Notes: generated from the sequence alone by a model not told the origin. A stretch of 3,982 nt of DNA from Escherichia coli (GCF_003334255.1 NZ_QOWU01000112.1), one strand, 5' to 3'. Counted from the stretch's first letter, positions 134 through 694 are shown. Made by a program: numbers and translations.

Positions 134-147
134 TTAGCCATGACTAA
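134..147. promoter_or_regulatory. Candidate repressor operator, dyad TTAGCCATGACTAA (TTAG-N6-CTAA), between the repressor gene and the leftward downstream gene
   Basis: Same TTAG-N6-CTAA architecture as the two dyads in the dicA-dicC intergenic region (630-643, 680-693). On the minus strand it lies between a TTGACC (plus 159..154) and a TAATCT (plus 136..131) with 17-bp spacing, a possible leftward promoter. Confidence 0.4.
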
Positions 148-199
148 CATATCGGTCAAGTGATTTTGTATGCTATAGCTAACATAATTGATGTGGTAA

Positions 200-226
200 A
201 AGATAACTCATTGATGATGTTATCTT
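200..226 (-). terminator. Weak candidate terminator or hairpin overlapping the dicA stop codon
   Basis: Perfect 8-bp inverted repeat AAGATAAC (200-207) / GTTATCTT (219-226) with an 11-nt loop. T-rich on the plus side (225-232) and a short A/T run on the other side. The stem is AT-rich with only 2 GC pairs, so predicted stability is low. Confidence 0.2.
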
Positions 227-627
227 TTATTTGTCCGCTGACGGGCTTTTAGTAATTCTTCAAAGAGTTTATTGAAGTTTTTTACTCGAGCTCGCATTTC
301 GGCGAGCTGGGTATCCTGTTCTGATTCTGGCAGTGCATTAAACAGCTCAAGGAGCTCTAGTTCTTTGGGGGATAAGGCAACTGGCTTCTCAACAGGTGGT
401 GTTGGTTGCTTGTCTTCATCGCCAAATAGAATCCATGTTGGTGAGCATTGCAATACTTTGCTGAGGGCAAAAAGGTTCTTCCCTGTAGGTTCACTATCAC
501 CCCGTTCCCATTGTGATACAGACACATGGGAGATTTTCAGGGCTTTAGCAAGAGACCTTTGGGTGTGTTTGAGGTTTTTCCGACGATACCTGATGCGTTC
601 GCCGATAGTTAAATTTTTTGTTTCCAT
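220..627 (-). CDS. dicA: DicA-type HTH (XRE/cI-like) prophage repressor, 135 aa
   Basis: 135-aa ORF beginning METKNLTIGERIRYRRKNLKHTQRSLAKALKISHVSVSQWERG, an XRE-family helix-turn-helix in the N-terminal half. The sequence and length match what I remember of E. coli Qin prophage DicA. It is divergent from a 76-aa Cro-like gene across an operator-rich spacer. No Shine-Dalgarno is evident upstream of the ATG. Confidence 0.88.
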   Translation of the reverse strand: METKNLTIGERIRYRRKNLKHTQRSLAKALKISHVSVSQWERGDSEPTGKNLFALSKVLQCSPTWILFGDEDKQPTPPVEKPVALSPKELELLELFNALPESEQDTQLAEMRARVKNFNKLFEELLKARQRTNKR

Positions 628-629
628 AG

Positions 630-643
630 TTAGCTAATGCTAA
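630..643. promoter_or_regulatory. Candidate operator dyad TTAGCTAATGCTAA immediately upstream of the dicA start
   Basis: TTAG-N6-CTAA arrangement; contains the perfect 8-bp palindrome TTAGCTAA (630-637). Begins 3 bp from the dicA initiation codon (625-627 on the minus strand). Confidence 0.4.
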
Positions 644-649
644 ATCGTA

Positions 650-678
650 TTGACTATGTTTTTGTTAACATCTATCCT
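650..678 (+). promoter_or_regulatory. Candidate rightward sigma70 promoter for dicC (PR-like)
   Basis: TTGACT at 650-655 (-35), a 17-bp spacer, then TATCCT at 673-678 (-10). The predicted start falls inside the 679-694 dyad. The RBS-like AAAGGTG at 697-703 precedes the dicC ATG at 711. Confidence 0.45.
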
Positions 679-694
679 GTTAGTTATGACTAAC
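679..694. promoter_or_regulatory. Candidate operator, near-perfect dyad GTTAGT-TATG-ACTAAC overlapping the dicC promoter start region
   Basis: 6-bp arms GTTAGT and ACTAAC are exact reverse complements around a 4-bp spacer. Position directly downstream of the -10 is typical of a repressor or Cro operator. Confidence 0.5.

What the first reader, a model, noticed from the sequence alone, without database searches (positions are those of the whole stretch)
134..694. Three TTAG-N6-CTAA dyads at the repressor start, over the dicC promoter and upstream of the leftward downstream gene
Dyads at 134-147, 630-643 and 680-693 share TTAG and CTAA arms 10 bp apart. The one at 679-694 is nearly perfect (GTTAGT-TATG-ACTAAC) and overlaps the -10 and start region of the rightward promoter. 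The one at 134-147 sits in a possible leftward promoter between dicA and the next leftward gene. Together these look like the operator set through which the DicA and DicC pair controls the immunity switch and the adjacent leftward operon.
Basis: partly seen in the sequence, partly recalled or inferred. Interest (0 to 1): 0.35.

Follow-up and report, generated by a model that had tools for sequence, protein, structure and literature searches.

The report
Known DicA/DicC prophage operator sites
The three short palindromes are real and are the already-described repressor-binding sites of the E. coli Qin-type prophage switch (DicA/DicC), so the finding is correct but ordinary.

Summary
TTAG-N6-CTAA occurs exactly three times in the window (134, 630, 680), against 0.06 expected by chance.

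The window is a Qin-type lambdoid immunity region, 99% identical to E. coli K-12 and ATCC 8739. It carries the ydfA start, dicA, dicC, a ydaT-family gene and an O-like gene.

- **680-693** is the core of published operator Oc. DicA binds it in vivo, and one base change in the TTAG arm abolishes binding. It is annotated at -8 to +12 of dicCp.
- **134-147** lies in the spacer and -10 of the known DicA-repressed promoter dicBp.
- **630-643** lies 3 nt from the dicA start, at the position of P22 OR3.

In 47 to 63 non-redundant relatives the arms are almost invariant while the centres drift. A heteroimmune relative carries a different dyad at the same positions. The layout is collinear with the annotated P22/ES18 OR and OL operators. 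A published DicC ChIP-seq motif matches these arms, with sites inferred on both sides of dicA.

One caveat: DicA reportedly did not bind the two non-Oc operators of the dicA-dicC region when tested alone (data not shown).

Verdict: already known, low interest.

The parts
132..149 (.). OL1-type operator of dicBp (GATTAGCCATGACTAACA; TTAG-N6-CTAA core 134-147)
   Evidence: Exact dyad. Top PWM hit at 21.7 bits, using a matrix trained only on relatives with 64-77% repressor identity. Exact dyad in 62 of 63 non-redundant relatives. Lies in the spacer and overlaps the first 3 nt of the -10. Collinear with the annotated ES18/P22 OL operators.
167..184 (.).
   Evidence: PWM 14.0 bits, against a 95th percentile of 10.9 for shuffle maxima. 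The orthologous site has 0-1 mismatch in 44 of 63 relatives, where 0.65% is expected at random. Spacing to OL1 is 34-36 bp. It is a perfect dyad in L003, L068, L076 and L077.
131..159 (-). dicBp core promoter candidate: -35 TTGACC 159-154, 17-nt spacer, -10 TAATCT 136-131, predicted start near 124
   Evidence: Own scan, 8/12. The same arrangement occurs in L002, L003, L004 and L005 at 8-9/12. It aligns with the annotated ES18 P-L. dicBp upstream of ydfA is repressed by DicA (PMC10448788). The start site is inferred, not measured.
628..645 (.). Oa/OR3-position operator (AGTTAGCTAATGCTAAAT; core 630-643), 3 nt from the dicA ATG
   Evidence: Exact dyad. PWM 19.6 bits. Exact in 46 of 47 non-redundant relatives; the exception is probably a mis-set start codon in L065. 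Both arms and the centre are nearly invariant. It aligns with ES18/P22 OR3.
653..670 (.). Om/OR2-position vestigial site (ACTATGTTTTTGTTAACA; core 655-668 TATG-N6-TTAA, 3 mismatches)
   Evidence: Positional homology to P22/ES18 OR2 only. Centres are spaced 25 + 25 bp between Oa, Om and Oc. Most relatives also show 3 mismatches, which is the chance level, and there is no PWM hit. This agrees with the published lack of DicA binding to Om.
677..696 (.). Oc/OR1-position operator (CTGTTAGTTATGACTAACAA; core 680-693), the published DicA operator
   Evidence: It is the reverse complement of the published Oc, TTGTTAGTCATAACTAACAA, except for C at 677. An A-to-C change, equivalent to window T681G in the TTAG arm, abolishes DicA binding in vivo. 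Annotated at -8 to +12 of dicCp. PWM 21.3 bits.
650..685 (+). dicCp: -35 TTGACT 650-655, -10 TATCCT 673-678, start at 685
   Evidence: Promoter scan, 9/12. A 5' RACE start lies 11 nt after the -11 A (PMC3441716). The DicA site at -8 to +12 places +1 at 685.
220..627 (-). dicA, CI-type repressor, 135 aa
   Evidence: NCBIfam NF007257, 3e-70. Residues 7-71 match the P22 C2 N-terminal domain, including the DNA complex entry 2R1J, at about 1e-19. Identical to K-12 DicA.
711..941 (+). dicC, Cro-type regulator, 76 aa
   Evidence: NCBIfam NF007282, 1.8e-47. Identical to K-12 DicC.
1..53 (-). 5' end of ydfA, first gene of the dicB operon
   Evidence: RefSeq annotation of the 99%-identical loci.

Best explanation
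These dyads are the operators of a P22-like lambdoid immunity switch carried by a Qin-type prophage.

Each site is a roughly 18-bp palindrome, with family consensus TGTTAGCCATGGCTAACA. Its two GTTAG half-sites are one helical turn apart, so one helix-turn-helix dimer can bind one face of the DNA.

- **Oc (677-696)** spans -8 to +12 of dicCp. DicA bound there blocks RNA polymerase and shuts off dicC. It also stimulates dicA transcription. This part is shown experimentally in K-12.
- **OL1 (132-149)** fills the spacer and the first bases of the -10 of dicBp. **OL2 (167-184)** lies just upstream of the -35. DicA bound here keeps the ydfABC-dicF-dicB operon off. The repression is shown genetically; the site assignment is inferred.
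- **Oa (628-645)** abuts the dicA start codon at the P22 OR3 position. It is most likely where DicC (Cro-like), and possibly excess DicA, shuts off dicA. This is inferred.
- **Om**, at the OR2 position, has decayed.

DicA lacks a RecA-cleavable domain. The switch flips through the Rem antirepressor, heat or urea, or stochastically (published).
For: - **Statistics:** 3 exact dyads against 0.06 expected.
- **Identity of the region:**
- **Published binding and regulation:** DicA binds Oc in vivo, and one arm mutation kills binding. Clones of the promoter on high-copy plasmids survive only with Oc mutations. An independent reporter library shows the same depletion, and Reg-Seq recovers the DicA site at dicC. 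Deleting dicA gives 100% dicBp-on colonies, and deleting dicC lowers switching. The DicC ChIP-seq palindrome TT(A/C/T)G...C(G/A/T)AA has its strongest peak here, with sites inferred on either side of dicA.
- **Comparative evidence generated here:** arms are invariant in 46-47 of 47 sequences (Oa, Oc) and 62 of 63 (OL1), while the Oc centre drops to 40-80% conservation. A PWM trained on distant relatives recovers exactly four sites in the window and nothing else above background. Heteroimmune L004 has different recognition helices in both proteins and carries TGAGAAAACTCA-type dyads at the same positions. The region aligns with the annotated C2 operators and the P-R and P-L promoters of ES18/P22.
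Against: - Yun et al. report that DicA bound neither Oa nor Om when each was cloned alone in their in vivo assay (data not shown). DicA occupancy of 630-643 is therefore doubtful.
- No footprint or base-resolution binding is available for DicA at dicBp. Reg-Seq authors call that binding location unknown and low-evidence.
- The dicBp -10 in this window matches the consensus at only 3 of 6 positions, and its start site is inferred.
- Relatives are phylogenetically related, so the conservation counts overstate independent support.
- The conservation of Oa could partly reflect its position at the dicA translation start.
Confidence: 0.9

Rival explanations
1. Division of labour. Only Oc and the dicBp sites are DicA operators. 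The 630-643 dyad is a DicC-only site, or a site for another factor such as the host protein YjdC, and DicA never uses it.
For: DicA did not bind Oa or Om alone in vivo. Oa has its own nearly invariant centre, CTAATG, unlike the CCATGG-type centres of Oc, OL1 and OL2. DicC ChIP-seq peaks cover this region. YjdC ChIP-qPCR enriches the dic locus.
Against: The negative result is 'data not shown', from an assay at chromosomal DicA levels (about 20 copies per cell), with the site isolated from its neighbours. The arms are identical to those DicA recognises in Oc. The homologous P22 OR3 is bound by both C2 and Cro (ES18 annotation for C2; the Cro part is general lambdoid knowledge). I could not confirm that the published 'Oa' equals 630-643.
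Confidence: 0.3
2. The 630-643 dyad is conserved mainly because it is part of the dicA promoter, leader or translation start, not because a protein binds it.
For: It ends 3 nt from the dicA ATG. No Shine-Dalgarno sequence or consensus dicA promoter is visible. Its centre is as conserved as its arms.
Against: It is a true dyad with exactly the arms and spacing of the proven operator. The heteroimmune L004 and the P22 type replace it with their own operator-like dyads at the same place. The two roles are not mutually exclusive: lambda OR3 overlaps PRM (general knowledge).
Confidence: 0.07
3. The dyads are chance palindromes in AT-rich intergenic DNA.
For: The arms are short (4 bp) and the intergenic DNA is AT-rich.
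Against: 0 of 200 shuffles reach 3 matches. Positions are conserved across repressors down to about 54-60% identity. There is published mutational evidence for Oc.
Confidence: 0.01

Closest known systems
E. coli K-12 Qin prophage dicA-dicC/dicBp immunity region (operators Oa, Om, Oc and the dicBp operators; Bejar et al. 1986/1988; Yun et al. 2012)
   Same: The DicA and DicC proteins are 100% identical. The two regulatory regions are identical to K-12 except at window position 677. All three dyads sit at the same offsets. Oc is the published DicA operator.
   Different: Window position 677 is C where K-12 has T. This is the outermost base of the 20-bp Oc and position 5 of the dicCp -10. Downstream of dicC the window carries an intact ydaT-family gene, an O-like replication gene and further genes, as in phage PhiR42_1 and ATCC 8739. 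K-12 has the ydfX pseudogene remnant there instead.
Salmonella phage P22 / ES18 immC: c2-cro with OR1-OR3 and OL1-OL3
   Same: The DicA N-terminal domain matches the P22 C2 N-terminal domain at about 1e-19, with 58.7% identity over residues 8-70. The repressor-to-cro spacers align colinearly, with shared CATAGTTA, the CTTGACT -35 and three operator positions. OL1 lies between the -35 and -10 of P-L, with the GGTCAAGTG motif shared, and OL2 lies about 35 bp away.
   Different: The half-site is GTTAG(C) rather than the P22 TTTAAG type. The OR2-position site has decayed. DicA has a short helical C-terminus and no S24 peptidase or RecA-cleavage domain, so induction goes through the Rem antirepressor.
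Phage lambda OR/OL with CI and Cro
   Same: The logic is the same: divergent repressor and cro genes, dyad operators overlapping PR-, PRM- and PL-equivalents, and a bistable switch.
   Different: There is no sequence similarity between the operators. The cooperative OR1-OR2 pair appears to be missing. Positive autoregulation is reported from the OR1-position site (Oc) rather than from OR2.

Membership tests
Lambdoid (P22 immC-type) immunity operators | Divergently transcribed CI-type and Cro-type helix-turn-helix regulator genes flank the sites | tested here: met
   dicA 220-627 (-) and dicC 711-941 (+). NCBIfam DicA 3e-70 and DicC 1.8e-47. P22 C2 N-terminal domain match at 8e-20.
Lambdoid (P22 immC-type) immunity operators | Several copies of one dyad-symmetric sequence occur both in the repressor-cro spacer and at the leftward early promoter | tested here: met
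   Exact dyads at 630 and 680 (right) and 134 (left), plus a weaker one at 169.
Lambdoid (P22 immC-type) immunity operators | Operators overlap core promoter elements of the PR- and PL-equivalents | tested here: met
   Oc spans -8 to +12 of dicCp. OL1 fills the spacer and overlaps the -10 of the dicBp candidate. The dicBp start site is inferred only.
Lambdoid (P22 immC-type) immunity operators | Operator sequence changes together with the recognition helices in heteroimmune relatives, while positions are kept | tested here: met
   L004 has repressor helix SGSSISLWES and Cro helix DPSAVSQW, and carries TGAGAAAACTCA-type dyads at the same positions. Relatives with SHVSVSQWE or AHVTISQWE helices keep TTAG-N6-CTAA. 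Only one clearly heteroimmune type with the same layout was examined. A second (phiES15) shows a different spacing.
Lambdoid (P22 immC-type) immunity operators | Direct, sequence-specific binding by the repressor and by Cro | not testable with these tools
   Published for DicA at Oc (in vivo assay plus point mutant) and for DicC by ChIP-seq at region resolution. Published negative result for DicA at Oa and Om alone (data not shown). Nothing at base resolution for dicBp.
Lambdoid (P22 immC-type) immunity operators | Three functional sites per side with cooperative filling of sites 1 and 2 | tested here: not met
   The OR2-position site has 3 of 8 arm mismatches, which is the chance level, in the window and in most relatives. 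No third OL site scores above background. Cooperativity itself is not testable here.
Qin dicA-dicC locus (same locus as in K-12) | Near-identity of genes and regulatory DNA to the K-12 locus, and the same neighbours on the dicB side | tested here: met
   98.9% identity over 1 kb to DH1, including ydfA, dicA and dicC. Proteins are identical.

The most novel reading that the evidence does not exclude
The Qin-type switch may be a pared-down version of the P22 switch.

The OR2-position site has decayed across the whole family. A single DicA dimer at the OR1-position site (Oc) would then both block dicCp and act as a class-II-type activator of a dicA promoter that starts near 649-660. The weak candidates are -35 CTAACA 683-678 with -10 AAACAT 661-656, or -35 TTGTTA 696-691 with -10 GATGTT 672-667.

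The invariant Oa dyad, with its own CTAATG centre, would be a DicC-specific roadblock in the dicA leader rather than a DicA site.

Repressor types that are only 54-63% identical share the same TTAG/CTAA arms, and some genomes carry up to 7 such loci. Co-resident prophages could therefore cross-regulate one another.
Probability: 0.2. Interest if true: 0.35.

Novelty: already known. Interest (0 to 1): 0.1.

Why it matters
This switch keeps the toxic division inhibitors DicB and DicF silent in a large share of E. coli strains. Part of this 1-kb region was found in 3791 of 5426 complete genomes. Knowing the exact operator set helps in interpreting prophage induction, titration artefacts when the region is cloned, and DicC effects on host genes.

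The operators were predicted in the 1980s, and the key one was verified in 2012. The finding therefore adds little. The comparative work here contributes a family consensus (TGTTAGCCATGGCTAACA), support for a fourth site at dicBp, and evidence that the OR2-position site has decayed.

Tried and rejected
- **Rfam scan of the whole window** at E <= 1: no hits. No known RNA element explains the dyads.
- **Conserved inverted repeat 104-117 in the dicB-operon leader**, considered as a structured RNA: the fold of 50-128 (minus strand) is no better than shuffles, z = -0.15. Not pursued.
- **Third OL operator:** the best candidate, 191-208, scores -4 bits. Rejected.
- **Om as a real TTAG/CTAA dyad:** its mismatch count equals the random expectation in most relatives. 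Kept only as a positional vestige.
- **Original Bejar 1986 and Cam 1988 papers** (PMC311701, PMC338298): not held. Bejar 1988 has no PMC id in the reference list I read. The published coordinates of Oa, Om and the dicBp operators could therefore not be checked directly.
- **Base-resolution DicA binding at dicBp:** searched in the YjdC paper and in both Reg-Seq papers. None found.
- **Consensus dicA promoter:** only 7/12 candidates found, in line with Yun et al.
- **The standard promoter scan** did not report dicBp, because its -10 matches only 3 of 6 positions.

Full report
**What is in the window.** ORF listing and database comparison show a Qin-type lambdoid prophage immunity region. It holds the first 53 nt of ydfA (minus strand), dicA (220-627, minus) and dicC (711-941, plus). 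These are followed by a ydaT-family gene, an O-like replication gene and further early genes. The first kilobase is 99.0% identical to E. coli ATCC 8739 and 98.9% to K-12 DH1, where RefSeq names the genes ydfA, dicA and dicC. NCBIfam confirms DicA (3e-70) and DicC (1.8e-47). DicA and DicC are residue-for-residue identical to the K-12 proteins. An inducible phage from ECOR13, PhiR42_1, carries the same repressor and the same downstream gene order as the window.

**Check of the observation.** TTAG-N6-CTAA occurs exactly three times, at 134-147, 630-643 and 680-693, and nowhere else on either strand. Dinucleotide-preserving shuffles give 0.06 matches on average, and none of 200 shuffles reaches three. 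Allowing one mismatch adds no further site. All three lie in the non-coding DNA on either side of dicA. The description of 679-694 as GTTAGT-TATG-ACTAAC is correct.

**What is already published.**
- Yun et al. 2012 (PMC3441716) define operator Oc as TTGTTAGTCATAACTAACAA. This is the reverse complement of window 677-696 except for the outermost base (C at 677 here, T in K-12).
- They show in vivo that DicA binds Oc. A single A-to-C change, equivalent to T681G in the TTAG arm, abolishes binding. High-copy clones of the promoter region survive only if Oc is mutated. DicA at Oc represses dicC and is needed for dicA transcription.
- Their 5' RACE start, together with the annotation of the DicA site at -8 to +12 in a later Reg-Seq preprint, places the dicCp start at window 685. 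This fits the promoter scan: TTGACT 650-655, 17 nt, TATCCT 673-678.
- The same preprint independently saw depletion of plasmid library variants with an intact DicA site. Reg-Seq recovered the DicA site at dicC.
- Ragunathan et al. 2023 (PMC10448788) show that DicA strongly represses dicBp upstream of ydfA. DicA and DicC form a bistable switch, and the Rem antirepressor relieves repression. Citing Bejar 1988, they state that both the dicA-dicC spacer and the dicA-dicBp region contain three operator-like sequences.
- Lally et al. 2024 (bioRxiv 10.1101/2024.09.21.614188) report a DicC ChIP-seq motif, 'TT(A/C/T)G on one side, C(G/A/T)AA on the other'. [quoted passage not shown]

**Comparative evidence generated here.** I collected diverged copies from three sources: E. 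coli genomes (L002-L006), phage records (L007-L010) and 80 IMG/VR contigs (L011-L090). Together they hold 30 distinct repressor proteins down to about 63% identity, plus others at 50-60%.
- Every locus whose repressor has the recognition helix SHVSVSQWE or AHVTISQWE carries an exact TTAG-N6-CTAA at three fixed places. One is 2-3 nt from the repressor ATG, one is 52-53 nt from it, and one is in the leftward promoter.
- The counts among non-redundant sequences are 46 of 47, 46 of 47 and 62 of 63. The single right-side exception is probably a mis-set start codon in L065.
- In a column-by-column profile all 16 arm positions of Oa and Oc are invariant, while the Oc centre falls to 40-80%.
- The family consensus for Oc, OL1 and OL2 is the perfect palindrome TGTTAGCCATGGCTAACA.
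- Oa keeps a distinct, nearly invariant centre (GTTAGCTAATGCTAAAT).
- A heteroimmune relative, L004, differs in the recognition helices of both proteins. It has TGAGAAAACTCA-type dyads at the same positions. This is the co-variation expected of operators.

These sequences are related to one another, so the counts are not independent trials. The contrast between arms and centres, and the concerted switch in L004, are the informative parts.

I built a position weight matrix only from relatives with 64-77% repressor identity and scanned the window with it.
- It recovers four sites and nothing else: 132-149 (21.7 bits), 678-695 (21.3), 628-645 (19.6) and 167-184 (14.0). The 95th percentile of shuffle maxima is 10.9, and the next real hit scores 2.5.
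- The fourth site, TATGCTATAGCTAA at 169-182, has a weakened left arm here. In relatives it has 0-1 mismatch in 44 of 63 sequences and lies 34-36 bp from OL1.
- In the right-hand spacer, alignment with the annotated operators of ES18 (P22-type immC) shows a colinear layout: Oa = OR3, 653-670 = OR2 and Oc = OR1, with centres 25 bp apart.
- The OR2-position sequence has three arm mismatches, which is the chance level, in the window and in most relatives.
- This agrees with the published statement that DicA does not bind Om.

**Promoter context on the left.** On the minus strand, TTGACC (159-154), a 17-nt spacer and TAATCT (136-131) form the best dicBp candidate. Relatives have the same arrangement with TAAATT as the -10, and it aligns with the annotated ES18 P-L. 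OL1 fills the spacer, and its arm supplies the first three bases of the -10. OL2 lies just upstream of the -35. The start site, near 124, is inferred.

**Mechanism.**
- *Shown in the literature:* DicA binds Oc, represses dicC and is required for dicA expression. DicA represses dicBp. DicC antagonises dicA and binds this region. Rem, heat, urea or chance flips the switch.
- *Inferred here:* one DicA dimer per 18-bp palindrome, with half-sites one helical turn apart. This rests on the homology of residues 7-71 to the P22 C2 N-terminal domain, whose DNA complexes are solved. Also inferred are promoter occlusion at dicBp through OL1 and OL2, and Oa as the site through which DicC (and perhaps excess DicA) shuts off dicA.
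- *Main uncertainty:* Oa. Yun et al. say DicA bound neither Oa nor Om alone (data not shown). I could not read Bejar 1986/1988 to verify that their Oa is 630-643.

**Comparison and novelty.** This is the Qin dicA-dicC/dicBp operator set. It is a member of the P22 immC-type lambdoid immunity operators, with a different half-site, a decayed OR2 and a non-cleavable repressor. Operator-like sequences at both regulatory regions were described from sequence in the 1980s (as cited). Oc was verified in 2012, and a matching DicC motif was published in 2024. The finding is correct and already known, and the interest is low. Small residual gaps remain: base-resolution proof of DicA at dicBp, the role of Oa, and the location of the dicA promoter. 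The most novel reading still open is a one-dimer switch, with Oc acting as repressor site and activator site at once and Oa as a DicC-only roadblock. I put it at about 0.2 probability.

Noticed in passing
window 197-229: A perfect 11-bp inverted repeat, TAAAAGATAAC / GTTATCTTTTA, with an 11-nt loop spans the dicA stop codon (220-222). L002 keeps a stem there with different bases (GATAACGCA..TGCGTTATC). The P22-type phage ES18 has a GC-rich hairpin at the same place after c2. It is probably the dicA terminator, insulating dicBp from read-through.
   Followed up: partly
window 104-117: The inverted repeat ACACCG-TG-CGGTGT lies in the leader of the dicB operon. It is conserved even in the heteroimmune locus L004, roughly where ES18 annotates nutL downstream of P-L. 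The RNA fold of the leader is no better than shuffles (z = -0.15), and there is no Rfam hit.
   Followed up: partly
window 944-967: The 9-bp unit AGGCTCGTG is present in 2.7 copies. This probably accounts for the window being 9 bp longer than K-12 and ATCC 8739 (1000 versus 991 nt aligned), and would add three residues (AREAREA) near the N-terminus of the ydaT-family protein.
   Followed up: partly
window 1778-1851 and 1901-1934: Inside the O-like replication gene there are 23-bp repeats (3.2 copies, TCCATCAGGTCAAAATG...) followed by 12-bp repeats (ACAGAGAATACA, 2.8 copies). This layout is what is expected of a lambdoid origin with iterons inside the initiator gene.
   Followed up: no
window 3215-3217: An in-frame TAA cuts the SAM-methyltransferase-like ORF (…HGVLIF*WNETQIPVSQ…), and the reading frame continues for 29 more codons. 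Phage PhiR42_1 annotates a CDS of the same 357-bp length, so the truncation seems to be shared.
   Followed up: partly
window 677: C here, where K-12 and most relatives have T. The base is both the outermost position of the published 20-bp Oc and position 5 of the dicCp -10 (TATCCT versus TATCTT). It shortens the Oc palindrome arms from 8 to 7 bp.
   Followed up: partly
window 667-706: The Oc palindrome extends imperfectly to 18-nt arms (78% complementary), centred on the dicCp start. This is longer than one repressor dimer would need.
   Followed up: no
L010 (Cronobacter phage phiES15), repressor-cro spacer and region downstream of the repressor: A DicA homologue (52% identity, helix SSVSVFKWE) has GTTAG/CTAAC arms with other geometry: GTTAG-N11-CTAAC in the right spacer, and ACTAAC-AAAA-GTTAGT (arms everted) on the left. 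The half-site is the same but the spacing differs.
   Followed up: no
L002 625-700 (E. coli 08_3323): In this 93%-identical relative the OL1 and OL2 regions look like a tandem duplication that includes the -35-like motif (GCCATGACTAACA-ATTTGGTCAA / GCCATGACTAACA-TTTTGGGCAA). This suggests how the two left operators arose.
   Followed up: no
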